A DNA stretch of 64,000 nucleotides, taken from positions 570,252 through 634,251 of the forward strand of contig OY970216.1 in the NCBI GenBank assembly GCA_963713955.1. The letters are read 5' to 3'. The stretch's first letter is position 1; every line of letters starts with the position of its first letter. The notes under the pieces are model-generated. The model did no database searches, was not told the DNA's origin, and was given only the letters and a program-made list of their open reading frames with translations. The stretch is from an uncultured bacterium. Lineage in GTDB: Bacteria; Patescibacteriota; Minisyncoccia; UBA6257; GWB1-50-10. Of this stretch, positions 12,268-34,796 are shown in pieces. Position numbers and translations under genes: made by a program.

Positions 12268-12289
12268 CCGCGCGGCTAGAAAATTTACC

Positions 12290-13539: not shown

Positions 13540-13559
13540 TTGTGTTAAACTGAAAACAT

Positions 13560-14108
13560 ATGAAATGCCCCAGGTGCAAAAGGGAAATGATAAAAAGGGT
13601 GAAAGATGTGAGTTATAACTTGAGAACTGGCAAACAGTACAGCAGGACTGTGTATTTGTGCGAGAAGGATGATGTGTGGTGGGCCAGGGTGGAAATTCCG
13701 AATGGAAAGATGACCAAGAAAGCCACGGGGGAGAAAGGAATCATAAAACACATAGAATTTTGGGTTTTTGATTTGAAGCGATCAATGAGATTCTATAAGG
13801 GTATTTTCAAACTTATTCACTGGGATCATGTCGAGAAAAACGCTTTCAGTAACGGCCAAACAAAGATCTACTTTATTGAGCAGAAGGTAGAACCCCAGAG
13901 AACGGTCGGCCCCAGGCATATATGTTTCTTGGCTGATTCGTGTGAAACCGTCGATGAGATTGCCCGGTTTTTGATCAAGAACAAAAGCGATATTATTCGG
14001 GGCCCCCTTGAGTACCAATACAGAAATCGGATCTCCTACACTATAGATTTCAGGGACCCTGACGGATATGTTATAGAGGTAGCGACCAAGTCGGTCATCC
14101 GGCATTAA
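13560..14108 (+). CDS. VOC/glyoxalase-bleomycin-resistance-fold protein with an N-terminal zinc-ribbon
   Basis: The N-terminus carries a zinc-ribbon (CPRC...C). VOC beta-alpha-beta-beta-beta modules follow (HIEFWVFDL, GPRHICFLADS, IDFRDPDGYVIEV). Confidence 0.5.
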   Translation: MKCPRCKREMIKRVKDVSYNLRTGKQYSRTVYLCEKDDVWWARVEIPNGKMTKKATGEKGIIKHIEFWVFDLKRSMRFYKGIFKLIHWDHVEKNAFSNGQTKIYFIEQKVEPQRTVGPRHICFLADSCETVDEIARFLIKNKSDIIRGPLEYQYRNRISYTIDFRDPDGYVIEVATKSVIRH

Positions 14109-14116
14109 ACCTTGAG

Positions 14117-14914: not shown

Positions 14915-15009
14915 GACAAATAGGGTGGGTGTTAATGCTAGTTTATGCCCTTAAGCAATTCCCGACACCTTCCAGCGCGCCGAGCTGAAGTATTTTTTAT
15001 CGCGCCGCG

Positions 15010-15029
15010 CAGACCGAAAGGTCTGTTTT
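15010..15029 (+). terminator. Rho-independent terminator (cagacc-gaaa-ggtctg-tttt)
   Basis: A 6-bp perfect stem with a GAAA tetraloop and a T4 run lies downstream of the 14117-14914 gene. Confidence 0.45.
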
Positions 15030-15068
15030 GGCAACCTAATTCCAAGCTATTGGGATATTACGATGCTG

Positions 15069-15097
15069 TTGACATCAGTGCTGTTTCGGTATATAAA
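15069..15097 (+). promoter_or_regulatory. Sigma70 promoter for rnc: TTGACA, 17-nt spacer, TATAAA
   Basis: The sequence ttgacatcagtgctgtttcggtatataaat matches the consensus closely. It lies about 50 nt upstream of the rnc ATG. Confidence 0.5.
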
Positions 15098-15145
15098 TCA
15101 CAACAGAAACTTCACTTAACTAACCTCTCAAAGGAAGGAGACAAT

Positions 15146-15847
15146 ATGAGAGACTTTATTGACTGTGAAAAGAAACTGGGCGTGGAGTTTAAGAACAAAG
15201 AACTCCTCAAGAATGCTTTTACTCACCGTTCGTATGTCAACGAGGTTAAGGGATTAAATACGAGGCACAATGAGCGCCTGGAGTTTCTCGGGGATGCAGT
15301 CCTTGAACTTATAGTAAGGGAATACCTTTACACGGCATTTCCCGAAAAACCCGAGGGTGAGCTTGCCGCCATCCGTAATACGCTTGTGGGTATGGAAATA
15401 CTCTCCGGTGTTACCCGTCGTTTGGAGGTAAGTGAGTTCCTGCTCACTTCAAATGGTGCCATAAAAGAGGGGGAACGCGCCTTGAGGACCATACTCGGCA
15501 GGCTCTATGAGGCCATCGTCGGTGCAATATACCTTGATCAGGGATATGAGACAGCGCAAAACCTCGTCTATGAGACTCTCCTGCCCGAACTCAAGACAGC
15601 CATTAACTTCCGCGACGCCAAGTCCTTTTTCCAAGAAGTAGCCCAGGCGTTGATGAAAATCACGCCGCACTATGAGCTCCTTAAGGAAGAAGGGCTCGAC
15701 AATAAGAAATGCTTTGTCGTCGCAGCCTGCTTAGGTGAAGAGCAAGTCGCGACCGGTGTAGGCACCTCCAAGAAGGAAGCAGAAACCAGAGCAGCGGAAG
15801 CCGCCCTGAAAGTAAAGGGTTGGCTTAACAAAATACCAGTCGTCTAA
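15146..15847 (+). CDS. rnc: Ribonuclease III
   Basis: The RNase III signature ERLEFLGDAVLEL is present, with a C-terminal dsRBD. An SD (aaggaaggag) precedes the ATG at 15146. The ORF track start at 14945 is upstream read-through. Confidence 0.85.
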   Translation: MRDFIDCEKKLGVEFKNKELLKNAFTHRSYVNEVKGLNTRHNERLEFLGDAVLELIVREYLYTAFPEKPEGELAAIRNTLVGMEILSGVTRRLEVSEFLLTSNGAIKEGERALRTILGRLYEAIVGAIYLDQGYETAQNLVYETLLPELKTAINFRDAKSFFQEVAQALMKITPHYELLKEEGLDNKKCFVVAACLGEEQVATGVGTSKKEAETRAAEAALKVKGWLNKIPVV

Positions 15848-15866
15848 CGACGGTAACTTTATTCAA

Positions 15867-15910
15867 GCCCCCGTTCGTGTCATCGATTTGACCGGCGGGG
15901 CGCTTTATTT
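15867..15910 (+). terminator. Hairpin (gcccccg...cgggggc) followed by ctttatttt; candidate rnc terminator
   Basis: The feature begins 20 nt after the rnc stop. Confidence 0.4.
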
Positions 15911-15911
15911 T

Positions 15912-16800
15912 CATGAAGGGAATACTTTGATAAGGGTATCCCTAGTCAATTGGCGCAAAGGTTAACGACTTTTTGAGGTAGTTCCTGGGGTTTTGAAACA
16001 ATTCCGGTGAGGAAAATCTGACGGAAAATTCCCTCACGTAGTCAGGCATCTTCTCCGCGGTCACGTGATGGTACATTCTCCTCACGAATGTCCTGAAGTT
16101 CCCGAACATCCCCTCGATCTCGGAGGTCTTCCCGAACTCCCATTTAGCATGGATGTCCCGTTCGTGTCTCACTGGCCACCATCTCTCGATGCCCCGGTAT
16201 ATGGCTGCCCCATCGGTATGGAGCCTCGCCCTCGGCTTCACGTACTCCATGAGGAACCGAACCGCTTCTGCTCGGTCAACCGACTTCTCGGGCAAAACCA
16301 CGTACGCGACCTTTCTCGAGCGCTCCTCTTTCCCCATGATGAGTGACCAGCCCTTGCCGTATGCCTCATCGAGCTGCACGATCCGTGAGAGAATATCATG
16401 GTTTTGAGGCAGGTGTTCCCGGAAGCGGTCGTACCAGCGACGGATGGCCATCTCGGAAAGCCCCGAGAGGTTCATGGCTTGAACAACGGGTATCTTTTCG
16501 CACCACGCCCAGAGGACGAGCCACCACGTCTCAAGCGGGAGCTTCAGATCGCTTAACCAGGTGTATGAGAGGAGGGTGAACCTTCTCCGACATCGGGGGC
16601 ACCAGTACCGATCCTTCTCCTTCCAGACATCCCGGTACCGACAGCGGGGACAGTACACATTCTTGCCAAAGAGCGTTCTCCGGAGAAACTTCCTGATCTG
16701 GGCTTCCGACGGTATTTGATTCAATTGGTACATATCCTTCATGGTATGCGATATGCGCCAACATGATTAGAGTACCCCTTTGATAAAACCTTGACATATT
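15912..16800 (-). mobile_element. IS1595-family insertion sequence; boundaries not resolved
   Basis: The extent is set around the transposase CDS. Flanks show short palindromes (gggaatac/gtatccc) but no clear terminal inverted repeats that I can see. Confidence 0.3.
15942..16742 (-). CDS. IS1595-family (ISXO2-like) transposase
   Basis: An N-terminal transposase zinc-ribbon is present (CPRCRYRDV...CPRCRRRF). DDE-type region motifs follow (QLDEAY, LHTDGAAIY, EIEGMFGNFRTFVRRMYHHV). Confidence 0.75.
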   Translation of the reverse strand: MKDMYQLNQIPSEAQIRKFLRRTLFGKNVYCPRCRYRDVWKEKDRYWCPRCRRRFTLLSYTWLSDLKLPLETWWLVLWAWCEKIPVVQAMNLSGLSEMAIRRWYDRFREHLPQNHDILSRIVQLDEAYGKGWSLIMGKEERSRKVAYVVLPEKSVDRAEAVRFLMEYVKPRARLHTDGAAIYRGIERWWPVRHERDIHAKWEFGKTSEIEGMFGNFRTFVRRMYHHVTAEKMPDYVREFSVRFSSPELFQNPRNYLKKSLTFAPID

Positions 16801-16884
16801 CACCGAAAGGTGGTATTTTATTTACACGCATATTTACTTTTTAATATTAGCTGAAAACTTAACCGAAAGGAGGGATAAGCAGAC

Positions 16885-17784
16885 ATGAGATTGGAATGGA
16901 GTGAAATGCTTGTGATTGCGGCTATTAGAGAGCTTCATAGGACTGGAGTAAGGATAAATTCCAATTACATCCAGGAACACTACAGGAGTTTGTACAATGC
17001 TGCAGTGTGGCGTTTCGGTAGTTGGGGCGACGCAGTTGAGGCGAGCGGATACAGTTATGCAAAGATTCTCGCACTCAAGCTACTTCGCCATCCGAAATGG
17101 AGTAAACAAATTGTAATCTCGAGAATAAGGGAACTCCATGAATCCGGTGAAAAGCTGAACTCGAATTATATCCAGACACACCACCAATCTCTCTACGGAG
17201 CTGCTATTAGATACTTCGGGAGTTGGGGGAAGGCCGTTAAAGCCGCTGGGTACGATTATGGTTCGGTCCGGGTTCGGAAACCTTTTCGTTCTTGGACGAA
17301 GGACAAAATTGTGAGTGCCATTAAGACCAGGTACCGGAAAGGATTGCCAATCAACACAATGGCAATCTACTCACAGGATCGCGGTCTTTATAGCGCGGTC
17401 AGACGTCATTTTGGGAAAGACGGTATGAAGAAAGCTCAAAAAAAAGCCGGCTTCAATCCGCGAGATTTAGATCCCAAGAGAATATGGACTTCTAAGAAGG
17501 TGTTGCGGGAAATAAGGAGATTGAAAAAACTTCATGTCCCGCTCTACCACTTTTATCTTCTGAATCACGGTTACCAAAGCTTGACCTACGCCGGAGTAAG
17601 GCTCTTCGGCAGCTGGAGAAAGACAATCAAAGCCGCCAGACTTGATTACGATCGTATTAAAGCGGTCAGGAATCATTTCTGGAATAAGGGGCGAGTGATT
17701 GTAGAGATCAGACGTCTTGCCAGAAAAGGTGAGCGCCTGAGTTCGAAACACATCCACCTTACTGTGATGGATAGGTTTCTTTAG
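16885..17784 (+). CDS. Tandem-repeat protein (about 5 degenerate repeats of roughly 62 aa); C-terminus replaced by IS sequence
   Basis: The repeat consensus is W[ST]Kxx[IV][IV]xxIRELHxxGxx[IL]NSNYIQxHxxSLYxAA[IV]RxFGSWxxAVxAAGY, and resembles homing-endonuclease-associated helical repeats. The last 7 codons lie inside IS copy 1. Confidence 0.5.
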   Translation: MRLEWSEMLVIAAIRELHRTGVRINSNYIQEHYRSLYNAAVWRFGSWGDAVEASGYSYAKILALKLLRHPKWSKQIVISRIRELHESGEKLNSNYIQTHHQSLYGAAIRYFGSWGKAVKAAGYDYGSVRVRKPFRSWTKDKIVSAIKTRYRKGLPINTMAIYSQDRGLYSAVRRHFGKDGMKKAQKKAGFNPRDLDPKRIWTSKKVLREIRRLKKLHVPLYHFYLLNHGYQSLTYAGVRLFGSWRKTIKAARLDYDRIKAVRNHFWNKGRVIVEIRRLARKGERLSSKHIHLTVMDRFL

Positions 17785-17824
17785 ACAGTCACTCGACAAG
17801 TTTTCTCGTCGTTTTTTCATTCTC

Positions 17825-18607
17825 TCACACTGCTATCTTCTCTGCAAACACCGAAGGCGGCATCCTGAGAGCGGAGTGGATTCTTGTATGGTTGTACTCC
17901 CAAAGCGTTCGGTAGATCTCCGCCACAAGTTCCCCTAAGGATCTGAACCGATTAGGATCGCCAAGATCCATTTTGAATTTTCCGTAGAAAGATTCTTGGT
18001 ATCCGTTCTCCCACGGCGATCCGGGGCGTGAGCGGGAGATGGTGATGCCGTAGCGCTCAAGCATAGCGATGAACGCCTTCGCTTCGTATTCCCTCCCGTT
18101 GTCAGAATGGAAGATCACGGGTCGCGGGCAATGGAAGAGCGCGTTCGCCAGAGTTTGGATGGTGAGCGTCGATCCCTTCCGGGTCGCCACATGAACGCCC
18201 ATCAGTTGCCTCGTAAACAGGTTAAGGATCGTTGATACGTACAGCTTCTTCCCGTGAAAGACAAGCTCCGTGAAATCCGTCGCCCAGACATGGTTCGCAT
18301 ATGATGGCATAATGCCGAGGAGGAGGTTCGGGAAGTGCCGTTCCGCCTTGGATTTCCTGTATTTTCTCCCATGCCTGCGGTAGGGCTTGATGCCGTAAAT
18401 CCGCATGACCCGTTGCGCTCTCGGTCTGCCGATGCCGAGCGCAATCGCCAGTCGGCGTGAGCCGTATGAGGGATGCTCGTGAAGCACCTCCTCCGTCCGG
18501 ACCTTTAATGCCCAATCCTTCTTGTCCTGCGTTGCGACGTAATAGAGCGATGAGCGCGAGACACCCATGGCGCGAGCCAGGGCGGATACGTTCCTTTCCC
18601 TGCTCAA
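17825..18607 (-). CDS. IS3-family transposase OrfB (rve integrase core, DDE)
   Basis: The rve-core segments WATDFTE, FHSDNGREY and SPWENGYQESF are present. Confidence 0.85.
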   Translation of the reverse strand: MSRERNVSALARAMGVSRSSLYYVATQDKKDWALKVRTEEVLHEHPSYGSRRLAIALGIGRPRAQRVMRIYGIKPYRRHGRKYRKSKAERHFPNLLLGIMPSYANHVWATDFTELVFHGKKLYVSTILNLFTRQLMGVHVATRKGSTLTIQTLANALFHCPRPVIFHSDNGREYEAKAFIAMLERYGITISRSRPGSPWENGYQESFYGKFKMDLGDPNRFRSLGELVAEIYRTLWEYNHTRIHSALRMPPSVFAEKIAV

Positions 18608-18867
18608 TTCTTTTTTTGGGTCTGGGACAGCTTGATCGTGAGTTCACCGATCACTTCGAAGAGTTCCTGATTCTGTTTCTTTAGGCGATTGATTTCTCCC
18701 CAGGAGGGAGCGCTCGTGGCACCGGCGCCGAGCCATCCATACACGGTTGTCTCGTGGACGCCTGCATCTTTTGCCGCTTCTGCGACGGAGACGCCTTCTT
18801 CCTTCACGCGGCGGACAATCTCCGCTTTTACCTCTTTCGCTACCCGATATCCTTTTTTGTTAGCCAT
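18604..18867 (-). CDS. IS3-family transposase OrfA (HTH)
   Basis: An 87-aa protein with a helix-turn-helix and leucine zipper. It ends at the A_AAA_AAG slippery site. Confidence 0.8.
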   Translation of the reverse strand: MANKKGYRVAKEVKAEIVRRVKEEGVSVAEAAKDAGVHETTVYGWLGAGATSAPSWGEINRLKKQNQELFEVIGELTIKLSQTQKKN

Positions 18868-18921
18868 GACACAATGGTAATTTGTTCCGACCTTTGTGTC
18901 TAAATTTTCCTATCCGGAACA

Positions 18922-19134
18922 GTCGCCGAAGACCCAAACTATCTTCAGCTCTATCTGAGAAAGGTCTCAAAAGATCAAATTGGAATCGGTCTCACCTACC
19001 AGATACCGGAGGGCAAGGATGTCAAAACAGCTCAGGGGGAGTATTTTGACAAAGTCTCCGACTATCTTAAGCGGAACTTCGGGAACGATCTTGTGGGCTG
19101 GGATATGGCGGCCACCGTTCAACTCGTCAAATAA
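18922..19134 (+). pseudogene. 3' remnant (70 codons) of a gene truncated by IS copy 1
   Basis: The frame is open from the IS boundary to the TAA at 19132-19134 (...GWDMAATVQLVK*). It has no start codon. Confidence 0.4.
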
Positions 19135-19169
19135 ACAATAACAGTCGAAAAAGGACTGGAACTAGAAAA

Positions 19170-19205
19170 CCTGCCGATATGGCGGGTTTTCTACTTTTAT
19201 ACAAC
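19170..19205 (+). terminator. Hairpin (cctgcc-gatat-ggcggg) followed by a T-rich tract
   Basis: The sequence is aaaacctgccgatatggcgggttttctacttttat. Confidence 0.4.
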
Positions 19206-19316
19206 CCCCACCTTTCAGAACTATAAATGTAATAAGTGCGGCGAGCTTTCTAACATCTAACTAGAAGCCTTATAATTTCACTGGTATTACTCATTAAAAA
19301 GAGTTATCTTTTTGTT

Positions 19317-19823
19317 ATGGCGGAAAATAATGCTGCCTTTATTGACAGTAATAATCTTTATCAGGCGATCAAGAAGCTAGGCTGGAAACTAGATTATTTG
19401 AAATTTAAGACATATCTCTTAGAGAAATACAAAGTTAGAAATGCTTATCTATGTATTGGATACCTACCTCAGAATCAGGCAATGTATACCAACCTACAAC
19501 AGAGGGGTTATATTCTCGTTTTTAAACCAGTTTTAACACTCAAAGATGGCACCACGAAGGGTAACTGTGACGCCGATCTAGTTCTAAGGGCTATGATTGA
19601 ATATCCTAATTATGATAAAGCGGTGATCGTGGCCGGAGACGGAGATTATTATTCCTTAATCGATTACTTGAAATCTAAAGATAAACTGGAGCAAGTTCTG
19701 ATTCCAAATGAGTTCAGGTATTCAGCACTATTAAAAAAGGTCAATGACGAACACTTAAAATACACTTCTTTCATAAGTAGGTTGAGAAATAAGTTGGAAT
19801 ATTTTAGCACTGAAGCCTCATAA
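19317..19823 (+). CDS. NYN-domain (LabA-like PIN-fold) protein
   Basis: The acidic residues are arranged as in PF01936: IDSNNLY, GNCDADLVL and VIVAGDGDYYSLIDYL. The gene lies in an AT-rich islet. Confidence 0.65.
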   Translation: MAENNAAFIDSNNLYQAIKKLGWKLDYLKFKTYLLEKYKVRNAYLCIGYLPQNQAMYTNLQQRGYILVFKPVLTLKDGTTKGNCDADLVLRAMIEYPNYDKAVIVAGDGDYYSLIDYLKSKDKLEQVLIPNEFRYSALLKKVNDEHLKYTSFISRLRNKLEYFSTEAS

Positions 19824-20112
19824 AAATGAAAAGGGCCCCAGAAGGATTGAACCCCAAGGGAGCCTTTTCGTGGTGATACAATATAAATATACACCCCCTC
19901 CTATTGGGAAGTCAAAAGCCGAACGAACGGCTGCCTGTGGATAACCGATAACCCAGCGATTTCTCCTTTATTAACAGCATTCCAACATTGTCCCACTCGG
20001 AGAGCTGGATGCTATAGCGCAGCATATCAACGTATGTAAGCATGGCATAGGAAAAAGAGTAAATCCCGCATAGACCGAAATCTAGCGGGATTTATCGGCA
20101 ATGTAGATATAC

Positions 20113-20997
20113 TCATTCTGTTTCTTTGAAGCCTATCATAACCAGCCCCTTGTGCTCGGTCATAAATCTATTGTCCGGCTGAATCTTTAAAAGTTCTGTT
20201 CTCAGCTCATTTTCAAAATCTTTCAGGCGATCCACGAAAAGACTCTTTGCCGCATAAGAGGTGGTAAATTGTTCGGCGATCACCTCATCAACCGTCTTCA
20301 CGACCGAGGGAAAGAAATAATTGAATTTTTCTATTCGCTTGAAGCCAGCTTCCCGAAGATAAACGTCGAAAGATTTCTCGGGAGCTTTGAATTTTCCCTC
20401 TGTCGTTCTCCGCTCGGGCCCAAGATATTTTTTAATAACCTCAACGATCTTCCGTTCCCAAGCGGTGGGTGCATTGGTCCAAATGCTCTTGCCGCTCAAG
20501 ATCACTACGGCTCCATCCTCCGTCAAAAGCTTGTGGCTCAAAGAAAGCACCTTCTCTACATCCAGCCAGTGGAGAGCTTGAGCAAAAACCACACACTTGA
20601 ACCGACCCAGTTTATCATCCAAATCTTCTGCCCTACTCACGATCCACGTAACATTGCTGACTCCTAAATCTCCAGCTCGCTTTTTAGCCTCCTTGATCAT
20701 ATCCCCACTCGCATCTACGGCAACAATCTCATTAAAATATTTGACGAAAGGAAAAGTGGATCTACCGTCACCACACCCTATATCCAGCAAGCGCTCATTC
20801 CCGGCCAGATGGAGTTTCTCCGCAATGGTTCGGATGGTCTCTTCGGGGTACTCTCTACGATACTTAGTATAGGTTTTTGCCACTCCGGGAAATAAGTCCA
20901 TGGTTAAACTATAATCCAAATGCTCTTTACCGTCGACGAGTTCAAGAAGACATATGAAGAGGATAGGATGGAGATATCCGAGTTGGAATTGCCGCAC
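20113..20997 (-). CDS. Class I SAM-dependent methyltransferase
   Basis: Motif I is LLDIGCGDGRST, followed by VAVDASGDMI. A downstream hairpin (aaatcccgc/gcgggattt) on the minus strand looks like a terminator. Confidence 0.7.
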   Translation of the reverse strand: MRQFQLGYLHPILFICLLELVDGKEHLDYSLTMDLFPGVAKTYTKYRREYPEETIRTIAEKLHLAGNERLLDIGCGDGRSTFPFVKYFNEIVAVDASGDMIKEAKKRAGDLGVSNVTWIVSRAEDLDDKLGRFKCVVFAQALHWLDVEKVLSLSHKLLTEDGAVVILSGKSIWTNAPTAWERKIVEVIKKYLGPERRTTEGKFKAPEKSFDVYLREAGFKRIEKFNYFFPSVVKTVDEVIAEQFTTSYAAKSLFVDRLKDFENELRTELLKIQPDNRFMTEHKGLVMIGFKETE

Positions 20998-21169
20998 CCA
21001 GCAATTATGTCCTCCTTGTTTTCTGGTTCTCTTTATCAGAAAATGATCTTACGAGTTCACTGAACGGTAAAAGTTGAGTAAGTCCACACGTTCGAACAAC
21101 GTTCAAGCTCCGTAGCAAATCAAATTCAACATCAATAATTTAATAAAGAAAAATCAATATCAGATCTTT

Positions 21170-21595
21170 TTGTTTGCTTGCCCCGCAAACCTGCCTTTTA
21201 GTTTCGCAATACATCCATGGCTCGTGGTCAATCGCAAGGGAGTGATCTCGCGGTGGGAGGTCTCTGCCACAAAATGGCAACGCATCATGTGTTGGGGTCA
21301 CCTAAACAAGGATTTGTTTCCGCCATTTCAGGGAATAGGAATATTTCCGTTTCTACGAACGTTTCACTGGAAAGGTAAACTGCTGCGTTGTATAGAAGGA
21401 GATGAAAAATCGCTAGCGGCGCAGATGGTTGAGTTCATTGAGCAATCCGATAAAATTTATCCGTACAGCCAGACGTACTCTCTCATTGGACCAAACAGCA
21501 ACACCTATGTGCAGTGGATTCTCAATCACTTTCCACAATCGAACATGCGTTTGCCGTGGAATGCGCTTGGAAAGAATAAAATGCCTAAAAATTAG
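21170..21595 (+). CDS. Hypothetical protein (141 aa)
   Basis: An ORF with no confident family assignment. The GTTCGAAC motif lies upstream. Confidence 0.35.
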   Translation: MFACPANLPFSFAIHPWLVVNRKGVISRWEVSATKWQRIMCWGHLNKDLFPPFQGIGIFPFLRTFHWKGKLLRCIEGDEKSLAAQMVEFIEQSDKIYPYSQTYSLIGPNSNTYVQWILNHFPQSNMRLPWNALGKNKMPKN

Positions 21596-21692
21596 GCAAT
21601 TTCTTTCCCTTCTATTATCGTTCGAAAATCGTCCAAGCCAGCCACAGTCAGCGCAGTACCGAGGGAAACCAAAGAGGATCGAGTCCCTCCGA

Positions 21693-22313
21693 TCAAAATA
21701 CTATTCCTAACTTTCTAAGTTTACCCTCTAAATCTTCCTGTCCTCGAAAGAGTATCGTCATCATCCCAACCTCTCGGGCTACTGCCACATTTCTCTCTGT
21801 ATCATCAACAAATAGACATTCCTCTGGCTTCGCACCTAATCCTCTAAGAGTCAGCTCATAGATCCTCTCATCGGGCTTAGCGAGTCCTGAATAAGCAGAA
21901 CTCACCATCACGCGGAAGTAATCGTCGAGTTTGTACTTTCCGCGTTTGAAATCGAACCATTCCTTACTAGTGTTTGTGAGAGCCGCCAGCTCATAATGCG
22001 GCTTCAACTTGGAGAGTAAATCCAACATACTCTCAATCGGCTTCTGGCACTTTCTCCAGAGTTCTTTTGCGCGTTCAATGTCGATAACCCGAGTACCGGC
22101 TGTTTTGAGGAATATTGTCCAGAATTCATCCTCGGTTATCTGACCGATACGGAACTGAGGCCATGCAGCATTCCATCCTCTTTTCATGTCGTCAGGGGAG
22201 ATGCTAAAGCTAGCAGTGTATACATCATATTGTTCAGAATCACCATGATACCAAACGTCGTCATCTGTTAGAATCACATTTCCGAGATCAAAAATTATTA
22301 TTTTTGGAGGCAT
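21693..22313 (-). CDS. HAD-superfamily hydrolase
   Basis: Motif I is IIFDLGNVIL (DxG), and motif IV is FVDDTERN. Confidence 0.7.
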   Translation of the reverse strand: MPPKIIIFDLGNVILTDDDVWYHGDSEQYDVYTASFSISPDDMKRGWNAAWPQFRIGQITEDEFWTIFLKTAGTRVIDIERAKELWRKCQKPIESMLDLLSKLKPHYELAALTNTSKEWFDFKRGKYKLDDYFRVMVSSAYSGLAKPDERIYELTLRGLGAKPEECLFVDDTERNVAVAREVGMMTILFRGQEDLEGKLRKLGIVF

Positions 22314-22567
22314 AACTACGTTTCAACTTTAAGGGCCAGGGTCTAATTTATTATACACGGGGACCGGTTGATCCTGAAAAGAGATAGTGAGTAGTAGAGT
22401 GGGGTAGAGGATTACACGTTAGCGTATTCTTTCAAATCGGGGATGTGAATATACTCATTTTGCCGTTGTATAATAGTTCTAACGCTGTTTACAACGTGCA
22501 GCTAAAAAATACTCATCTGAAAACATAAAGCCCCACAACGAAGTGGGGCAATGTGATTCCGAATCGA

Positions 22568-22859
22568 TTACAATCTCTTGAACAACGCCAGTTTTTCGCC
22601 CTGGAACGTATCGAAACCCAGACCCTTAAAGAGATGGGGACGACCGGTGATCGCAAAAATCTCCTTGATGTTTCTATTCTTCGCAAGGGCAAGACATTTG
22701 CGTACCAACTGAGTTCCTATCCCGGACCCATGGTATTCTTTGTTCACCGCCAAGCTTCTAACTTCAGCAATTCTCTTGGAATAGATATCAAGGGCGCAGC
22801 AACCGATAATCTTGCCGTCTTCAACCGCAACAAAGAAACGGTTTATGGACGGAATCTCG
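22568..22859 (-). pseudogene. GNAT N-acetyltransferase fragment (ArgA-like C-terminal domain), 5'-truncated by IS copy 2
   Basis: The acetyl-CoA motif is present (LAVNKEYHGSGIGTQLV). The ORF's 5' end runs into the IS terminus at 22860. Confidence 0.55.
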
Positions 22860-22913
22860 TGTTCCGGATAGGAAAATTTAGACACAAAGGTCGGAACAAA
22901 TTACCATTGTGTC

Positions 22914-23177
22914 ATGGCTAACAAAAAAGGATATCGGGTAGCGAAAGAGGTAAAAGCGGAGATTGTCCGCCGCGTGAAGGAAGAAGGCGTCTCCGTCGCA
23001 GAAGCGGCAAAAGATGCAGGCGTCCACGAGACAACCGTGTATGGATGGCTCGGCGCCGGTGCCACGAGCGCTCCCTCCTGGGGAGAAATCAATCGCCTAA
23101 AGAAACAGAATCAGGAACTCTTCGAAGTGATCGGTGAACTCACGATCAAGCTGTCCCAGACCCAAAAAAAGAATTGA
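22914..23177 (+). CDS. IS3-family transposase OrfA
   Basis: Identical to the OrfA at 18604-18867. Confidence 0.8.
   Translation: MANKKGYRVAKEVKAEIVRRVKEEGVSVAEAAKDAGVHETTVYGWLGAGATSAPSWGEINRLKKQNQELFEVIGELTIKLSQTQKKN
23165..23171 (+). promoter_or_regulatory. Programmed -1 ribosomal frameshift heptamer A_AAA_AAG at the OrfA/OrfB overlap
   Basis: The sequence cccAAAAAAAGaattga places the slippery site 2 codons before the OrfA stop. OrfB is in the -1 frame. Confidence 0.6.
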
Positions 23178-23956
23178 GCAGGGAAAGGAACGTATCCGCC
23201 CTGGCTCGCGCCATGGGTGTCTCGCGCTCATCGCTCTATTACGTCGCAACGCAGGACAAGAAGGATTGGGCATTAAAGGTCCGGACGGAGGAGGTGCTTC
23301 ACGAGCATCCCTCATACGGCTCACGCCGACTGGCGATTGCGCTCGGCATCGGCAGACCGAGAGCGCAACGGGTCATGCGGATTTACGGCATCAAGCCCTA
23401 CCGCAGGCATGGGAGAAAATACAGGAAATCCAAGGCGGAACGGCACTTCCCGAACCTCCTCCTCGGCATTATGCCATCATATGCGAACCATGTCTGGGCG
23501 ACGGATTTCACGGAGCTTGTCTTTCACGGGAAGAAGCTGTACGTATCAACGATCCTTAACCTGTTTACGAGGCAACTGATGGGCGTTCATGTGGCGACCC
23601 GGAAGGGATCGACGCTCACCATCCAAACTCTGGCGAACGCGCTCTTCCATTGCCCGCGACCCGTGATCTTCCATTCTGACAACGGGAGGGAATACGAAGC
23701 GAAGGCGTTCATCGCTATGCTTGAGCGCTACGGCATCACCATCTCCCGCTCACGCCCCGGATCGCCGTGGGAGAACGGATACCAAGAATCTTTCTACGGA
23801 AAATTCAAAATGGATCTTGGCGATCCTAATCGGTTCAGATCCTTAGGGGAACTTGTGGCGGAGATCTACCGAACGCTTTGGGAGTACAACCATACAAGAA
23901 TCCACTCCGCTCTCAGGATGCCGCCTTCGGTGTTTGCAGAGAAGATAGCAGTGTGA
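23174..23956 (+). CDS. IS3-family transposase OrfB (rve)
   Basis: Identical to the OrfB at 17825-18607. Confidence 0.85.
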   Translation: MSRERNVSALARAMGVSRSSLYYVATQDKKDWALKVRTEEVLHEHPSYGSRRLAIALGIGRPRAQRVMRIYGIKPYRRHGRKYRKSKAERHFPNLLLGIMPSYANHVWATDFTELVFHGKKLYVSTILNLFTRQLMGVHVATRKGSTLTIQTLANALFHCPRPVIFHSDNGREYEAKAFIAMLERYGITISRSRPGSPWENGYQESFYGKFKMDLGDPNRFRSLGELVAEIYRTLWEYNHTRIHSALRMPPSVFAEKIAV

Positions 23957-24018
23957 GAGAATGAAAAAACGACGAGAAAACTTGTCGAGTGACTGTCTAA
24001 AGAAACCTATCCATCACA

Positions 24019-24171
24019 ATCAGAGAGTCTCGTGGAATCTCTTCCCTGAGCCAGGAGCTGGGAGGGGTTCAAGACCAGGACGACGGCGGTCGCTAAGACG
24101 GCAAGGATCGCGATCACGACAAGGAGCTCGATCAATGTAAAAGATTCTCTGCTTCGGGAGTGGAAATTCAT
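24019..24171 (-). pseudogene. 5' fragment of a type IV pilin/pseudopilin-like gene, truncated by IS copy 2
   Basis: The minus-strand ATG at 24171 gives MNFHSRSRESFTLIELLVVIAIL..., which is a prepilin-type N-terminal cleavage/methylation motif. The frame runs into the IS end. Confidence 0.5.
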
Positions 24172-24189
24172 CTATTCAATTATAACATT

Positions 24190-25056
24190 TCAGTTGATGG
24201 TCTGGGGATTCTTGCCTTCTACCTGTATCTCCTTTAGCTTTAATTTCCCACCGATAATCTCCGACTCAAGCAGTTTGGTTCGTTTTCCGCCGATAATAGA
24301 CCATGTTCCCGGCTCCGGATTCAAACCGCGGATTTTTCTGTCTATCGCGACAGCAACGTCGCCGCCACCTTTTTGCGCTTCTTCCAAATCGCTCTCGGAG
24401 ACAAAAGCATCTTCGGAAGTAAACTTCTTGGTGTACGTCGCTTTTGACTCATCCTGCGCCGTCGGCTCTATCTCACCGCTCAAAAATCTCGGAATCGTCT
24501 CAATAAGCAAGTCCGCCGAAAGTTTCGCCAGCTTGTCGTGCAAAGTACTATATGTCTCTCTACTTTCTACTTGATACTTTCTACTCGCTACTATCGCCCC
24601 GTGATCCACTTTTTCATCCATGAGAATCAGCGTCGTGCCGGTTTCCTCGTCGCCGTTCAAAATAGCCGCCTGGATCGGAGTTGCACCGCGGTATTTGGGG
24701 AGAAGGGAAGGATGAACGACGATGATACCCTTGGGAAATAGTTCAATGACTCCTTTTGGGATTATTTTCCCGTAGGAGGCGAGGACGGCAAAACTGGGAC
24801 GGTCAGTATCAGGTAGCGAGTATAAAGTATTAAGTATGTCCTCGACTTTTTCCGGCTGAAGGATTTTGATACTACTCTTTATACTTTCTACTTGATTCTC
24901 TATACATAATTTGACGGGCGAGGAGGTCATGATTTGCTTTCGCCCGATCGGCCGATCGGGATTCGTGATAACGAGCGAGGGCGACATGCCGGCATCAATC
25001 AACCGCTCCAATATCACGGCGGAGAATTCAGGTGTCCCAAAGAATACATAGTTCAT
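24190..25056 (-). CDS. fmt: Methionyl-tRNA formyltransferase
   Basis: The N-terminus reads NYVFFGTPEFS. The formyl-transferase motif HPSLLPKYRG and the C-terminal domain are present. The gene lies downstream of def. Confidence 0.85.
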   Translation of the reverse strand: MNYVFFGTPEFSAVILERLIDAGMSPSLVITNPDRPIGRKQIMTSSPVKLCIENQVESIKSSIKILQPEKVEDILNTLYSLPDTDRPSFAVLASYGKIIPKGVIELFPKGIIVVHPSLLPKYRGATPIQAAILNGDEETGTTLILMDEKVDHGAIVASRKYQVESRETYSTLHDKLAKLSADLLIETIPRFLSGEIEPTAQDESKATYTKKFTSEDAFVSESDLEEAQKGGGDVAVAIDRKIRGLNPEPGTWSIIGGKRTKLLESEIIGGKLKLKEIQVEGKNPQTIN

Positions 25057-25084: not shown

Positions 25085-25624
25085 CTACTCGCTACTGATT
25101 ACCGGTACTTCAACCTTGTGCAGTGCCTTCGCCTTGTCGATGAAAACCTTGCCGTCCAAGTGGTCAACCTCGTGTTGGAACACTCTCGCGAGGAGCCCCC
25201 ATGCTTTTATCCTTATCTTCTTGCCATCGGCATTCTGGCCGTCGAGAACCACTCGGTAGTGGCGCTCAACCGGACCGAAGGTCTGGGGCACGCTGAGACA
25301 CCCTTCTTCCATTTCCTCGACTTCTTTGGAAAGTTTCGATAAGACGGGATTGAACACGGCGTAAAATTTCATATGGCCCTGATCGTCCGGAACCTGCGCG
25401 ACAAACATGCAATAGGGGAGACCCACCTGATTTGCTGAAAGTCCTATGCCGTCAGCTTCCCTCATGATCTGCCTCATTTCCCTGACGAGATTTTTTACTT
25501 CCGTTTTGGCATGACCTGAAAAATCGAAAGGCTGGGTTCCAGAACGCAAAAACTTCTCGTCGTTCTTGTCGGCAACCTCCAAAATCCTGTGCTTGTTATT
25601 TGTCTCCATCTTTTTTATTCCCAT
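25085..25624 (-). CDS. def: Peptide deformylase
   Basis: The three deformylase motifs are present: GIGLSANQVG, EGCLSVP and HEVDHLDG. Confidence 0.85.
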   Translation of the reverse strand: MGIKKMETNNKHRILEVADKNDEKFLRSGTQPFDFSGHAKTEVKNLVREMRQIMREADGIGLSANQVGLPYCMFVAQVPDDQGHMKFYAVFNPVLSKLSKEVEEMEEGCLSVPQTFGPVERHYRVVLDGQNADGKKIRIKAWGLLARVFQHEVDHLDGKVFIDKAKALHKVEVPVISSE

Positions 25625-25868
25625 CGAAAAGAACTCTCATGAAATAAGCTCCCTTGTTTTTCACGTTCTTATTCCCGGCAACCCGCTTTGCGAGGCTCAA
25701 AAGTTCTCCCTTATCCCGCTCTTTGGCCAGCTTGATGTACAATGCCTTATGCTTCAAATCGCTTAAAATGTCAGCCAGCATGAGGCCCGTATCCTGGAAT
25801 TCTTTGTACACATGGCCTTTTTTTCCTCTTTCCTTGAGCTTCTCAAGGTAATTATCATCGAGAGCCAT
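25596..25868 (-). CDS. Hypothetical lysine-rich protein (90 aa)
   Basis: An ORF that overlaps the def start by 29 nt. It has no recognisable motifs. Confidence 0.3.
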   Translation of the reverse strand: MALDDNYLEKLKERGKKGHVYKEFQDTGLMLADILSDLKHKALYIKLAKERDKGELLSLAKRVAGNKNVKNKGAYFMRVLFDGNKKDGDK

Positions 25869-25898
25869 TGAAGAAATTATATGCTACAATTCGGTTTG

Positions 25899-26468
25899 AT
25901 GACAAACGCGCGGCGGCTTTTCGTGAGTGTGAAGATTCCGGAAGAAATAAAGCGGGAAACGGCACATATTTTGAACTCGGTGAAATTGCCCCAAAAATTC
26001 GCCGCAAGATTCCTACCGGAGAAAGGCTGACACCTGACGCTCCTCTTCCTGGGATCCGTCGCGGAGGCAGATGTTCCGCTCGTGACCGAGGCTGTCGAAA
26101 AAGCCGGACGGACGACGGGAGGAAAGGGCATAGGGATAAATTTCGAAGAGATCACTTTCGGACCGGAGGGGAAATTCAAGAGAATGATTTGGCTCACAAC
26201 CAGCAAGGAAACAAGCGTCCTCCTCGGCAGAATGAAAAACGAACTGAAAAAGAATCTCGGCGAAAAAGGAATCGGATGCGAGGAAAAGGAAAGAGAATTC
26301 GACGGACACGTGACACTCGCGAGATTCCTGCCGGCCGCGCCGACCGAGCTGCCGGACGTGCGGCAAAGCGTTCTCTTCCGGTTCCGGGCCGGTAAGATGT
26401 ATCTCACGGAATCGCACCTCAGCCGCTCCGGCGCCGAATACGAAGACCTCATGGAGGTTGATTTATAA
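25899..26468 (+). pseudogene. thpR: RNA 2',3'-cyclic phosphodiesterase / 2'-5' RNA ligase (LigT/ThpR, 2H family) interrupted by one in-frame TGA
   Basis: The ATG gives MTNARRLFVSVKIPEEIKRE...FLPEKG. An in-frame TGA follows at 26028-26030, and then HLTLLFLG (first HxTx motif) continues through FDGHVTLARF (second HxTx motif) to a stop at 26468. Both catalytic motifs are intact. Confidence 0.6.
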
Positions 26469-27723
26469 GGGAATTAAATTAGAATGTAAAAGGATGAAAA
26501 ACAAACCGCGCATTTTGAGAACAGCCCTCATCACCATCTCGATCGCCGTCTTCGGGGCCGTTTTGTTTTACGCAGGCTTGAGACTTGGAACTTCAGGATA
26601 CTCTGGACCGGAGTACTCATATTCGATACCGCCGAATGGCACAAGTACACTCCTCGGCGGCGATTTCTCGCTCTTCTGGGATGCGGTGCAACTCGTGAAA
26701 GAAAAATATTACGATCCATCAGCTATCAACAACAACGAAATGCTCTACGGGGCTATCAACGGGGCTGTGGGATCGCTCGGCGATCCCTATTCGGTATTCT
26801 TTTCCCCAAGCGACTCAACGAAATTTGACCAGGACCTCTCCGGCAGCTTCGGAGGCATCGGAGCTGAGATAGGAACCAAAAACGGCCAAATAGTCGTTGT
26901 CGCCCCCCTCAAAGATACACCGGCTGACGAAGCCGGGCTCCGTGCCGGGGATGAGATACTGAAAGTGGACGGCACTTCAACGATGAACATGACGCCGGAC
27001 GATGCCGTGAAGATCATACGGGGGAACATCGGGACAACCGTCAAGCTTCTCGTCATGAGGGATGGATGGAAAGAAGCGAAGGAATTCACCCTGACGAGAG
27101 TCTTGATCAGCGTCCCGACGCTCGACTGGAAAATGATCGACGGCGACATCGCCTACGTACAACTCTATAATTTCAATTCCAACGCCGCGTCCAAGTTCTA
27201 CGACGCGGCTCTCGGAGCCCTCACGGGGCGCGCGAAAGGAATGATACTGGACTTGAGAGACAACCCGGGAGGGTTTCTGGATGCGGCTCAAAACATAGCC
27301 GGCTGGTTCCTGAACCGCGGAGACACAATCGTCACGGAAAAATTCAGGGGGAACGCTGAGCAATCTCTCATCGCGAACGGCAATGAAGCCCTTGCCAAAA
27401 TGCCGACTGTGCTCATCGTGAACGGCGGATCGGCATCGGCTTCTGAAATTTTGGCTGGCGCCCTCCGGGACGACCGGGGAGCGAAGCTCGTGGGCGTTCA
27501 AACCTTCGGCAAGGGGAGCGTGCAGGAGATAGAAGACCTGCCGGGAGGTTCCTCCATGAAGATTTCAATAGCCGAATGGCTGACGCCCGAGGGGACGACG
27601 ATCAATAAGATCGGCCTGAAACCCGACTACATCGTCCCCCTGACTGATGAAAACATCCAAAATAAGCAAGATCCGCAACTCGACAAGGCGATCGAAGTAT
27701 TGAAAGCGGAAATGGGACAATGA
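26458..27723 (+). CDS. ctpA: Carboxyl-terminal processing protease (S41 family, PDZ domain)
   Basis: An N-terminal transmembrane/signal segment is present. The PDZ domain reads GIGAEIG...[13 protein letters not shown]. The S41 region contains [13 protein letters not shown] and the [11 protein letters not shown] motif. Confidence 0.8.
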
Positions 27724-33448: not shown

Positions 33449-33602
33449 TGGTAAGTTTGTAGCGGTTGTCCCACGGCACGCGAAATCTGCCGCAACGCTT
33501 TTGGTTTGCGCCGCCGATGAAATCCACGTTGGTAATCTTAGTGAACTTGGACCGATAGATCCTCAAATTAATGAATGTAAAGACCTGTAAAGACCCCCAA
33601 AG

Positions 33603-34412
33603 TTAAGACACTTTTTCGACAAGTTTCTGGTAGCGATTCGAGAACAGTGCAGGCGGCATCCTGAGGGCGGAGTGGATTCTCCGGTGGTTGTAGTCCCAGA
33701 CCAGGCGATGGATCTCGTAGACCAGCTCTCCCAGCGATTTGAACCTCTCCGGATCGCCCAGATCCACCTTGAACTGGGAGTAGAAGGACTCCTGGTAGCC
33801 GTTCTCCCATGGCGATGACTTCCTCGATCTCGATATCCTGACGCCGAGGTTCAAAAGAGCTCCGGTGAAGATCCTTGAGCCATACTCCCTTCCGTTGTCC
33901 GAGTGGAAGATGTTGGGTCTCGGATGATGTTCCGCCGCGGAGAAGAGTGCCTGGAGGACCAGAGGCACCGAGTGGGTATTCATCACGGCCCAGCCCACGA
34001 TCTCCCTCGCAAACAAATCCATCACGGTGGCGAGATACAGGAACTTCCCTTGGTACGGGATGTACGTGAAGTCCGCCACCCAGATATCGTTCAATCCTTT
34101 GGGGAAGTTCTTCTGAAGGAGATTGGGATACAGGATACTCGAGAAGCCCGTTTTCCTTGGCCTTCTGCCCCTTCTCCGATATGCCTTCATCCCGAAGAGC
34201 CTCATCACCCGTTGGGCTCTTTTTTTGTTGATCTTGAGCTCCAAAGCCACTCTTCTGAAGCCGTATGAAGGATGGTCTCTCAAGACTGATATGATCCTTT
34301 CCTTGAGCGACCAATCCTTGGGCGATTGTTTCGAGACATAGTAGAGGGAGGCGCGGGAGAGGCCGAGTTCACGGGCAAGTTCCCACTTCGTCTTCTTCTG
34401 CTTTTTGATCAA
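33603..34412 (-). CDS. IS3-family transposase OrfB (rve)
   Basis: The rve-core segments WVADFTY, FHSDNGREY and SPWENGYQESF are present. Confidence 0.8.
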   Translation of the reverse strand: MIKKQKKTKWELARELGLSRASLYYVSKQSPKDWSLKERIISVLRDHPSYGFRRVALELKINKKRAQRVMRLFGMKAYRRRGRRPRKTGFSSILYPNLLQKNFPKGLNDIWVADFTYIPYQGKFLYLATVMDLFAREIVGWAVMNTHSVPLVLQALFSAAEHHPRPNIFHSDNGREYGSRIFTGALLNLGVRISRSRKSSPWENGYQESFYSQFKVDLGDPERFKSLGELVYEIHRLVWDYNHRRIHSALRMPPALFSNRYQKLVEKVS

Positions 34413-34666
34413 CGCTTTTTTTGAGTGCGTGAGGAGGCCAGGGTGAGCTCGCCCACGAGGGCGAGGAGCTCTTCGTTCTGGCGCTTGAGGCGGACGAGTT
34501 CACCGATCGTGGGGGTGCCTTTCACGCCCCTTCCCAGCCAGTTGTATATGGTGGCGGGATTCAGACCGTGTTCCTTGGCGGCCTGGACGACCGGGATCCC
34601 TTCCTCCTTGATTCTCTTCAATATCTGCTCCTTCACCTCGGGAGCAGTGCGATATGTTTTCTTCAT
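34409..34666 (-). CDS. IS3-family transposase OrfA
   Basis: An 85-aa HTH protein, about 50% identical to the other element's OrfA. Confidence 0.75.
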   Translation of the reverse strand: MKKTYRTAPEVKEQILKRIKEEGIPVVQAAKEHGLNPATIYNWLGRGVKGTPTIGELVRLKRQNEELLALVGELTLASSRTQKKR

Positions 34667-34796
34667 GACACAAGGGTATATTGACTTCGACCTTTGTGTC
34701 TAATATATGGGGGTCAGGCCATTCATGACAAATTCATTATATCATAGCTATCTCCCTGTCAACAGTTCTTCTTCCCGTAACTTGTCCAGGAAAAAA

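What the first reader, a model, noticed from the sequence alone, without database searches (positions are those of the whole stretch)
25899..26468. ligT/thpR (2H phosphoesterase) interrupted by a single in-frame TGA immediately before the first catalytic HxTx motif
A single in-frame TGA at 26028-26030 splits the ligT reading frame just before the first HxTx motif, yet the rest of the frame stays open and both catalytic motifs are intact (sequence in the features list). The N-terminal segment is shorter than 60 aa, so the ORF track lists only the second half, from a GTG start.

Elsewhere in the window TGA clearly acts as a stop, for example at the end of the patatin gene. A Gly-recoding genetic code is therefore unlikely.

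Three explanations remain: a very recent nonsense mutation, programmed or leaky read-through, or a sequencing error.
Basis: seen in the sequence. Interest (0 to 1): 0.55.

Follow-up and report, generated by a model that had tools for sequence, protein, structure and literature searches.

The report
Recently broken thpR/ligT gene (nonsense pseudogene)
A small RNA-end-processing gene (thpR/ligT) in this tiny-genome groundwater-type bacterium has a real stop codon where relatives nearly always have tryptophan. It is an ordinary gene caught early in being lost, not a change in the genetic code.

Summary
Window 25899-26468 (+) is a full-length ThpR/LigT 2H-phosphoesterase frame, broken once by TGA at 26028-26030, directly before the first HxTx motif.

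- **Not a sequencing error.** Three other assemblies of the same strain carry the identical TGA.
- **One-base change.** The stop aligns with Trp in 139 of 151 homologues, so it is a single TGG>TGA transition (W44*).
- **Not recoding.** TGA ends 26 of 54 good ORFs in the window, and their lengths or Pfam coverage match orthologues. There are 190 TGG codons against this one internal TGA.
- **No SECIS-like structure** lies downstream of the TGA.
- **Ancestral but dispensable.** ligT sits directly upstream of the S41 peptidase in 24 of 75 assessable species (25 carry it in the locus), always intact. It is absent from that locus in 50, including every close relative. One close relative keeps a short remnant of the ligT 5' end.
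- **No other damage.** The rest of the gene looks undecayed: 187 bits against the family HMM, within the range of intact copies.

Best reading: a young nonsense pseudogene in a gene this clade loses often. Low-level UGA>Trp read-through would restore the native residue and cannot be excluded. Interest is low.

The parts
25899..26468 (+). thpR/ligT reading frame (RNA 2',3'-cyclic phosphodiesterase, 2H family). It has 189 codons including the internal stop and is a nonsense pseudogene.
   Evidence: TIGR02258 88.6 bits over model positions 2-180 of 180, and Pfam PF02834. Family HMM 187.4 bits with W restored. PDB relatives are 2fyh, 4qak (E. coli ThpR), 5ldi, 1vdx and 1iuh.
25899..26027 (+). N-terminal fragment, 43 codons (MTNARRLFVSVKIPEE...FLPEKG). 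This is all that normal termination would produce.
   Evidence: Matches family HMM positions 1-43, 23.2 bits.
26028..26030 (+). Premature stop TGA (W44*), followed by C (+4).
   Evidence: Read directly. Identical in L001-L003. The aligned column is Trp in 139 of 151 homologues and in the syntenic orthologues L011, L013 and P0002.
26031..26042 (+). First catalytic HxTx motif (His45-Leu-Thr47-Leu).
   Evidence: His and Thr are invariant in 151 of 151 homologues.
26307..26318 (+). Second catalytic HxTx motif (His137-Val-Thr139-Leu).
   Evidence: Conserved columns H 0.99 and T 0.97, both kept in the window.
26082..26468 (+). 128-aa GTG ORF, the piece that gene callers annotate (P0001). It lacks the first HxTx motif.
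   Evidence: No Pfam family is precomputed for it, and it scores only 19 bits, below the Pfam cutoff.
25596..25868 (-). Conserved 90-aa hypothetical gene, the upstream syntenic anchor (followed by def and fmt).
   Evidence: Present next to def and fmt in all related loci. 85% identical to the L006 protein.
26494..27723 (+). S41 C-terminal processing peptidase (CtpB-like), the downstream syntenic anchor. A promoter-like TTGATT-16-TAGAAT lies at 26458-26485, inside the ligT 3' end.
   Evidence: The -10-like box is conserved in relatives with and without ligT.

Best explanation
This is a young pseudogene. An ancestral thpR/ligT gene sits in its conserved position between the fmt-def-90aa block and the S41 peptidase-rplI block. 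It suffered one G>A transition that turned the conserved Trp44 codon (TGG) into TGA.

**Shown:**
- The stop is real and is present in every available assembly of this strain.
- TGA is a normal terminator in this genome.
- The gene is ancestral at this locus, and relatives often lack it there.
- The rest of the frame shows no other damage.

**Inferred:**
- Ribosomes stop after 43 residues, before either catalytic HxTx motif. No in-frame start codon lies between the TGA and His45, so no active 2H phosphoesterase is made, apart from whatever trace arises from ordinary UGA misreading.
- The lineage tolerates the loss because the enzyme is dispensable here.
- The mutation is recent.
For: 1. **Real base.** ligT DNA, TGA included, is identical in L001, L002 and L003, which come from other sequencing datasets. 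L001 and L003 differ from the window elsewhere.
2. **Conserved Trp column.** The stop column is Trp in 139 of 151 of the closest family members, followed by an invariant His. It is also W in the syntenic orthologues. TGG>TGA is one transition.
3. **TGA is a genuine stop.**
   - 26 of 54 curated ORFs end in TGA.
   - The S41 peptidase, L27, fmt and the Ser-hydrolase have orthologue-like lengths.
   - gltX, murG and three liv transporter genes end in TGA after end-to-end Pfam matches.
   - There are 190 TGG codons against one internal TGA.
4. **Ancestral and dispensable.**
   - An intact ligT lies directly upstream of S41 in L011 and L013.
   - Among 75 assessable GTDB species loci, 25 carry ligT, 24 of them directly upstream of S41. 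All are single ORFs covering the whole HMM.
   - The other 50 lack it in the locus, including all four species at 70-75% S41 identity. So do L004-L010 and L012.
   - L009 keeps a collinear remnant of the ligT 5' end in its spacer.
5. **No other decay.** The W-restored protein scores 187.4 bits, against 148-246 for intact orthologues. It keeps 24 of 28 highly conserved columns (family mean 25.9, sd 1.9).
6. **Genome in flux.** The window holds three 100% identical IS3-like copies and other transposases.
7. **S41 likely has its own promoter.** A conserved -10-like box precedes it, so a polar cost of the nonsense codon is not expected.
Against: - The frame is otherwise perfect, which is also what selection on a read-through product would give.
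- UGA is the leakiest stop and is misread by tRNA-Trp in E. coli and B. subtilis (PMC5289835). Misreading here would restore the native residue.
- UGA-C, the tetranucleotide found here, is the prfB slippage site in bacteria, and +4C raised read-through in yeast (PMC5289835).
- All four assemblies are one strain (99.93-100% identical). There is therefore no population or dN/dS evidence that constraint has been lost.
- Only 64 kb of an approximately 805-kb genome could be searched for a suppressor tRNA or a second thpR copy.
Confidence: 0.8

Rival explanations
1. The gene is still functional through leaky or suppressed UGA decoding. tRNA-Trp (near-cognate), or a suppressor tRNA encoded outside the window, reads UGA44 as Trp often enough to supply a low but sufficient amount of native ThpR. 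The allele would then be phenotypically near-silent and maintained.
For: - The stop sits exactly on the conserved Trp codon, so misreading by tRNA-Trp gives the wild-type protein.
- The +4 base is C, which makes the UGA-C tetranucleotide. That is the prfB slippage site, and +4C raised read-through in yeast (PMC5289835).
- There is no second lesion in the gene.
- Suppressor tRNAs occur in about 0.3% of standard-code bacterial genomes, and a 4-bp-anticodon-stem tRNA-Trp promotes UGA read-through in E. coli (PMC13092985).
Against: - No stimulatory RNA structure lies downstream (z = +0.62).
- None of the 27 intact orthologues found next to the S41 gene (26 of them directly upstream of it) has a stop at this or any other codon, so nothing here is conserved or programmed.
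- TGA ends about half of the genes in the window. Efficient suppression would extend many proteins.
- The only tRNA in the window is tRNA-Gln(CTG).
- The gene is missing from the locus in two thirds of related species, so there is little reason to expect selection to keep it.
Confidence: 0.12
2. Genetic-code change or ambiguity: UGA is (also) a sense codon in this organism. It would be Trp as in code 4 and in the Patescibacteriota family JAKLIH01, or Gly as in code 25 of Gracilibacteria/Absconditabacteria.
For: - UGA>Trp reassignment was recently reported in order UBA6257 of class Minisyncoccia (PMC13092985).
- Brennerbacteria, which that paper places in UBA6257, appear among the more distant S41 hits at 58-59% identity.
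- The stop is on a Trp column.
Against: - TGA is the commonest terminator: 26 of 54 ORFs, about 48%. The figure is 0% in JAKLIH01 and 4-27% in its relatives.
- TGA-terminated genes end where orthologues and Pfam models end.
- 190 Trp codons are TGG and only this one position is TGA.
- The column is never Gly.
- None of the related genome accessions fetched by name is in the JAKLIH01 clade table.
Confidence: 0.02
3. Sequencing or assembly error: the true codon is TGG.
For: A single-base difference is the kind of thing an error could produce.
Against: - The same base is present in the window and in three other assemblies from different accessions.
- Two of those assemblies differ from the window by indels or SNPs elsewhere, so they are independent.
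- The site (GGCTGACAC) is not in a homopolymer.
Confidence: 0.02
4. Selenocysteine insertion at UGA44, or a two-piece enzyme made from the 43-aa and 128/145-aa fragments.
For: UGA is the Sec codon. The 2H fold has internal two-fold pseudo-symmetry (general knowledge).
Against: - Homologues have Trp at this column and never Cys.
- No hairpin beyond shuffled expectation lies downstream of the UGA.
- No in-frame start codon lies between the TGA and His45. The first one is GTG 26082, so any restart product lacks the first HxTx motif.
- That fragment falls below the Pfam cutoff.
Confidence: 0.01

Closest known systems
ThpR (formerly LigT) RNA 2',3'-cyclic phosphodiesterase, 2H phosphoesterase superfamily (TIGR02258; E. 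coli ThpR, PDB 4QAK; 5LDI)
   Same: About 185 aa with two HxT(L)x motifs. It matches the equivalog HMM end to end above cutoff once the stop is read as Trp. It gives PDB sequence hits to ThpR and the 2'-5' RNA ligase-like proteins. Its position upstream of the S41 peptidase is the same as in related Patescibacteria.
   Different: The reading frame is cut at codon 44, so the predicted product lacks both catalytic motifs. Immediately before the stop it has G, where 100 of 151 homologues have N.
Nonsense-mutation pseudogenes formed during reductive genome evolution
   Same: A single disabling point mutation in an otherwise intact, non-essential gene. Related lineages have already lost the gene from this locus. 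Identical IS copies lie nearby.
   Different: Nothing unusual. The only particular feature is that the lesion is the one stop codon whose commonest misreading (UGA by tRNA-Trp) restores the original residue.
UGA>Trp reassignment in Patescibacteriota family JAKLIH01 (order UBA6257; PMC13092985), and code 4 in general
   Same: An in-frame UGA at a conserved Trp position in a member of the same broad class.
   Different: JAKLIH01 genomes have no UGA stops and no RF2, and 150-303 Pfam columns support the reassignment. In this window UGA ends about 48% of genes and only one Trp position is affected.

Membership tests
ThpR/LigT 2H phosphoesterase (TIGR02258) | Two H-x-T/S-x catalytic motifs at the conserved spacing | tested here: met
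   H45-L-T47-L and H137-V-T139-L. Both His/Thr columns are 97-100% conserved in 151 homologues.
ThpR/LigT 2H phosphoesterase (TIGR02258) | Full-length match to the equivalog model above its curated cutoff | tested here: met
   88.6 bits against a cutoff of 65.7, model positions 2-180 of 180, with Trp substituted at the stop. Pfam PF02834 gives 46.5 bits against 23.3.
ThpR/LigT 2H phosphoesterase (TIGR02258) | One uninterrupted polypeptide carrying both motifs (a functional gene) | tested here: not met
   TGA at codon 44. Neither fragment reaches the Pfam cutoff: the N-terminal piece has no hit and the 128-aa ORF scores 19 bits. This is therefore a pseudogene of the family rather than a functional member.
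ThpR/LigT 2H phosphoesterase (TIGR02258) | 2H fold and cyclic phosphodiesterase activity | not tested
   No structure prediction was run. Only sequence hits to solved ThpR/LigT structures are available. Activity needs an experiment.
UGA>Trp recoded genome (code 4; JAKLIH01-like) | UGA absent from true gene ends | tested here: not met
   26 of 54 ORFs end in TGA, at orthologue-consistent or Pfam-consistent positions.
UGA>Trp recoded genome (code 4; JAKLIH01-like) | Many in-frame UGAs at conserved Trp columns across genes | tested here: not met
   One internal TGA against 190 TGG codons in 16,484 codons. No other split gene is present in the window.
UGA>Trp recoded genome (code 4; JAKLIH01-like) | Loss of RF2 and/or presence of tRNA(UCA) | not testable with these tools
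   The window holds only tRNA-Gln(CTG), and no release-factor hit appeared among the roughly 40 larger ORFs scanned against Pfam.
UGA>Gly recoded genome (code 25) | In-frame UGA at conserved Gly columns | tested here: not met
   The column is W 139, L 6, R 2, M 2, I 1, F 1, with no Gly.
Bacterial selenoprotein | SECIS hairpin just downstream of the UGA; Cys or Sec in homologues | tested here: not met
   Fold of 26020-26110 gives -27 kcal/mol against a shuffled mean of -29.3, z = +0.62. No Cys occurs at the column.

The most novel reading that the evidence does not exclude
The UGA at Trp44 is decoded as Trp at a physiologically useful rate. The agent would be ordinary tRNA-Trp(CCA), a 4-bp-anticodon-stem variant of it, or a tRNA(UCA) encoded elsewhere in the genome. 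This lineage would then be a standard-code Minisyncoccia bacterium that tolerates an ambiguous UGA, a possible first step on the route to the UGA>Trp reassignment seen in family JAKLIH01.
Probability: 0.06. Interest if true: 0.6.

Novelty: new member of a known kind. Interest (0 to 1): 0.15.

Why it matters
- **Annotation.** The 128-aa ORF called at 26082-26468 in every assembly is the tail of a broken thpR. It should be annotated as a pseudogene, not as a hypothetical protein.
- **Biology.** This is a small, clean snapshot of reductive evolution in a Patescibacteria lineage. The same gene is intact in some relatives, freshly inactivated here, reduced to a short 5' remnant in one sister species, and gone from the locus in the others.
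- **Genetic code.** It does not bear on genetic-code evolution unless read-through is demonstrated.

Tried and rejected
- **First genome-contig scan** with the S41 protein alone found nothing. The second scan, using an alignment, worked.
- **JGI metagenome scan** for close ligT relatives gave only 26-31% identical hits. No diverged strain was available for a dN/dS or allele test.
- **Word-indexed protein search** with the joined protein found only the strain's own 128-aa ORF and one 39% homologue. It cannot show whether sister genomes keep ligT elsewhere.
- **Listing all same-frame segment pairs separated by a stop** was too noisy to use directly. I replaced it with the curated ORF set and an HMM scan of all six frames.
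- **Other long ORFs over the locus.** The 191-aa antisense ORF (25877-26452, minus strand) and the 175-aa +1-frame ORF (25868-26395) have Ser/Arg/Pro-rich, low-complexity translations. No gene caller called them in the three other assemblies. I treat them as spurious.
- **Link to the JAKLIH01 clade.** None of the related genome accessions is in that paper's table.
- **Rejected mechanisms.** Selenocysteine, frameshifting (both halves are in the same frame) and internal restart (no start codon before His45).

Full report
**1. The observation**

The + strand from ATG 25899 to TAA 26466-26468 is one reading frame. Its only interruption is TGA at 26028-26030. An alternative upstream ATG lies at 25881.

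The translation reads ...AARFLPEKG*HLTLLFLGS.... The stop therefore sits one codon before the first HxTx motif (His45, Thr47). The second motif (His137-Val-Thr139-Leu, 26307-26318) is intact.

With Trp at the stop, the 189-residue product matches the NCBIfam equivalog TIGR02258 (RNA 2',3'-cyclic phosphodiesterase). The match covers model positions 2-180 of 180 at 88.6 bits, against a cutoff of 65.7. It also matches Pfam LigT_PEase. The nearest solved structures by sequence are 2FYH, E. coli ThpR 4QAK, 5LDI, 1VDX and 1IUH.

The 128-aa GTG ORF (26082-26468) is the only piece the ORF list shows, and the only piece gene callers annotate. It lacks the first motif and falls below the Pfam cutoff on its own.

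**2. It is not a sequencing error**

The 128-aa ORF is recorded on three other contigs: ENA ERZ25039477 (L001), Logan ERR10755942 (L002) and Logan ERR12035932 (L003). All three carry ligT DNA identical to the window, TGA included.

They belong to the same strain, at 99.93-100% identity over 5.7-10.7 kb. L001 and L003 nevertheless differ from the window by indels in short G runs, and L003 also by two substitutions. They are therefore independent assemblies. The site (GGCTGACAC) is not in a homopolymer.

**3. What the codon used to be**

An exhaustive HMMER search, seeded with the nearest full-length homologue P0002, gave 150 family representatives. In a MAFFT alignment with the window protein, the column under the stop has W 139, L 6, R 2, M 2, I 1 and F 1. 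An invariant His follows, and an invariant Thr lies two positions after that. The syntenic orthologues L011, L013 and P0002 all read (N/Q)-W-H-x-T.

TGG>TGA is a single G>A transition. The lesion is W44*.

**4. It is not a different genetic code**

- In a set of 54 ORFs that are long, non-overlapping and mostly Pfam-supported, 26 end in TGA, 15 in TAA and 13 in TAG (compare).
- TGA-terminated genes end where they should. The S41 peptidase has 409 aa against 405-406 in relatives, and L27 has 92 against 92. fmt has 288 against 278-286, and the Ser-hydrolase has 204 against 204-206.
- gltX, murG and three liv transporter genes end in TGA after end-to-end Pfam matches.
- The same ORFs contain 190 TGG codons in 16,484 codons, against this single internal TGA.
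- A six-frame scan of the window with the family HMM finds only the two ligT halves. The dense gene map shows no other gene split by a TGA.
- The column is never Gly, which excludes code 25.

A 2026 paper reports a UGA>Trp reassignment in the Patescibacteriota family JAKLIH01, in order UBA6257 of class Minisyncoccia (PMC13092985). Those genomes have 0% UGA stops and no RF2, and 150-303 Pfam columns support the reassignment. Their standard-code relatives use UGA for 4-27% of stops. The window uses it for about 48%. None of the related genome accessions I fetched is in that clade's table. So the conserved Trp marks an ordinary point mutation, not recoding.

Selenocysteine is also excluded. No Cys occurs at the column. 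The 91 nt around and downstream of the UGA fold no better than shuffled sequence: -27 against -29.3 kcal/mol, z = +0.62.

**5. Evolutionary context**

The organism is a Patescibacteria (Minisyncoccia/Paceibacteria) relative of the Jorgensenbacteria and Brennerbacteria.

The local gene order recurs in relatives: fmt, def and the 90-aa ORF on the minus strand, then ligT, the S41 peptidase and rplI on the plus strand, then rpmA on the minus strand.

- **Distant relatives keep ligT.** L011 (S41 60% identical) and L013 (58%) have an intact 188-aa and 190-aa ligT in exactly this slot.
- **GTDB survey.** I fetched 80 loci from GTDB species representatives and scanned them in six frames with the family HMM.
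  - 25 of the 75 assessable loci carry ligT, 24 of them directly upstream of S41 on the same strand.
  - Every copy is a single open frame covering HMM positions about 2-190, at 148-246 bits.
  - The other 50 lack ligT within the locus.
- **Closest relatives lack it.** All the closest relatives (S41 70-75% identical) have no ligT in this slot. These are L004-L010 and L014-L017. The 90-aa gene and S41 are then only 30-235 nt apart.
- **A deletion scar.** The 235-nt spacer of L009 still aligns collinearly with the window through the ligT start. The segment GATGACAAACG (window 25898-25908) is identical, within a 91-nt local alignment. This suggests a deletion scar rather than a site that was never occupied.

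ligT is therefore ancestral at this locus and has dropped out of it repeatedly in this clade. The window strain is the only one of 28 occupied loci (27 intact copies plus this one) in which the gene is present but broken.

**6. How old is the lesion?**

With W restored, the protein scores 187.4 bits against the family HMM, which was built without it. That is inside the range of intact syntenic copies; L011, L013, L018, L052 and L061 score 183-190.

It keeps 24 of the 28 columns that are at least 80% conserved. The family mean is 25.9 with sd 1.9, and the broken Trp is one of the four misses. There are no frameshifts and no second stop. The mutation is therefore recent, or the frame is still under selection. 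The data cannot separate these, because all available copies are one strain and the JGI scan found no closer relative.

**7. Mechanism and consequences**

Normal termination yields a 43-residue peptide with no catalytic residue. No ATG, GTG or TTG lies in frame between the TGA and His45, so a restart cannot recover the first motif. This is inference from the sequence.

The downstream S41 gene is preceded by a promoter-like TTGATT-16-TAGAAT at 26458-26485. A TAGAAT/TAAAAT box ending 8-9 nt before the S41 ATG is conserved in five of six relatives examined, whether or not they have ligT. S41 and rplI are therefore probably transcribed independently, and the nonsense codon need not be polar. This too is inference.

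The window also holds signs of a genome in flux:
- three 100% identical IS3-like copies of 1.16 kb;
- a second IS3-like element, plus a fragment of it;
- an IS1595-type transposase;
- about 13.6 kb of extra DNA between PDDEXK/tRNA-Gln and fmt, compared with sister genomes.

**8. The remaining rival**

UGA is the leakiest stop codon and is misread by tRNA-Trp in E. coli and B. subtilis. UGA-C, the tetranucleotide found here, is the site of prfB ribosome slippage, and +4C raised read-through in yeast (PMC5289835). Misreading here would regenerate the native enzyme, so a trace of active ThpR is plausible.

Nothing suggests it is programmed or selected:
- there is no downstream structure;
- no orthologue has a stop at any codon;
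- two thirds of related species lack the gene at this locus.

I put this rival at about 0.12, and a true code ambiguity or suppressor scenario lower still. A tRNA(UCA) or an atypical tRNA-Trp elsewhere in the approximately 805-kb genome could not be checked. The window holds only tRNA-Gln.

**9. Verdict**

The feature is real, and it is a mundane one: a young nonsense pseudogene of thpR/ligT (W44*, TGG>TGA) in a gene that this clade loses readily. It is a new instance of a well-known kind of event.

It is useful for annotation, because the 128-aa "hypothetical protein" is a pseudogene fragment. It is also a tidy example of stepwise gene loss in a reduced genome. A specialist would not find it surprising. 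Interest 0.15.

Noticed in passing
window 17758-18922 (-), 22860-24023 (+), 58150-59310 (+): Three 100% identical copies of a 1.16-kb IS3-family element. Each has an 87-aa HTH_Tnp_1 orfA and a 260-aa rve orfB. Identical copies imply very recent transposition in a genome of about 0.8 Mb.
   Followed up: partly
window 33586-34700 and 57989-58151: A second, related IS3-like element with a 269-aa rve transposase, about 75% identical to the first type over 174 nt. A 163-nt fragment, 100% identical to its end, abuts the third IS copy. An IS1595-type transposase lies at 15942-16742.
   Followed up: no
window ~10600-24190: About 13.6 kb lies between PDDEXK nuclease/tRNA-Gln and fmt, where sister genomes (L005-L007) have about 1.5 kb holding a 150-aa gene and a Gmad2 gene. 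The window segment carries methyltransferases, an Exo_endo_phos nuclease, an IMPase-like gene and RNase III. It also carries an HNH-repeat protein, a NYN-domain protein, a HAD hydrolase and the IS copies. It looks like a plasticity region 2 kb from ligT.
   Followed up: partly
window 28661 (G-run) and 26947-26953: Assemblies of the same strain differ by one G in a G-run inside the Ser_hydrolase gene, giving 204-aa and 209-aa products. L003 also has a G-run deletion plus two substitutions that split the S41 peptidase into 155 + 246 aa. These are either assembly errors or real strain variants.
   Followed up: partly
window 26458-26485; L004, L007, L009, L011, L012 just upstream of S41: A conserved TAGAAT/TAAAAT -10-like box ends 8-9 nt before the S41 peptidase ATG, regardless of whether ligT is upstream. 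This suggests an own promoter and a nearly leaderless mRNA. A similar strong match on the minus strand (TTGTCA-18-TATAAT, 25905-25876) ends 7 nt before the 90-aa ORF's ATG.
   Followed up: partly
window 25877-26452 (-) and 25868-26395 (+): Two long alternative-frame ORFs (191 aa antisense, 175 aa in the +1 frame) cover the ligT locus. Their translations are low-complexity, rich in Ser/Arg/Pro or Arg/Lys. They were not called in the other assemblies and are probably spurious.
   Followed up: partly
L011, L013, P0002 versus the window ligT: Syntenic ligT orthologues are only 32-37% identical to one another, while the adjacent S41 peptidases are 55-60% identical. ThpR evolves unusually fast in this clade.
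   Followed up: no
L044 and L050 (MAG WY5.bin81, contigs JAKANQ010000001 and JAKANQ010000019): One MAG carries two separate ligT-S41 gene pairs on different contigs. This is either a duplication or a mixed bin.
   Followed up: no
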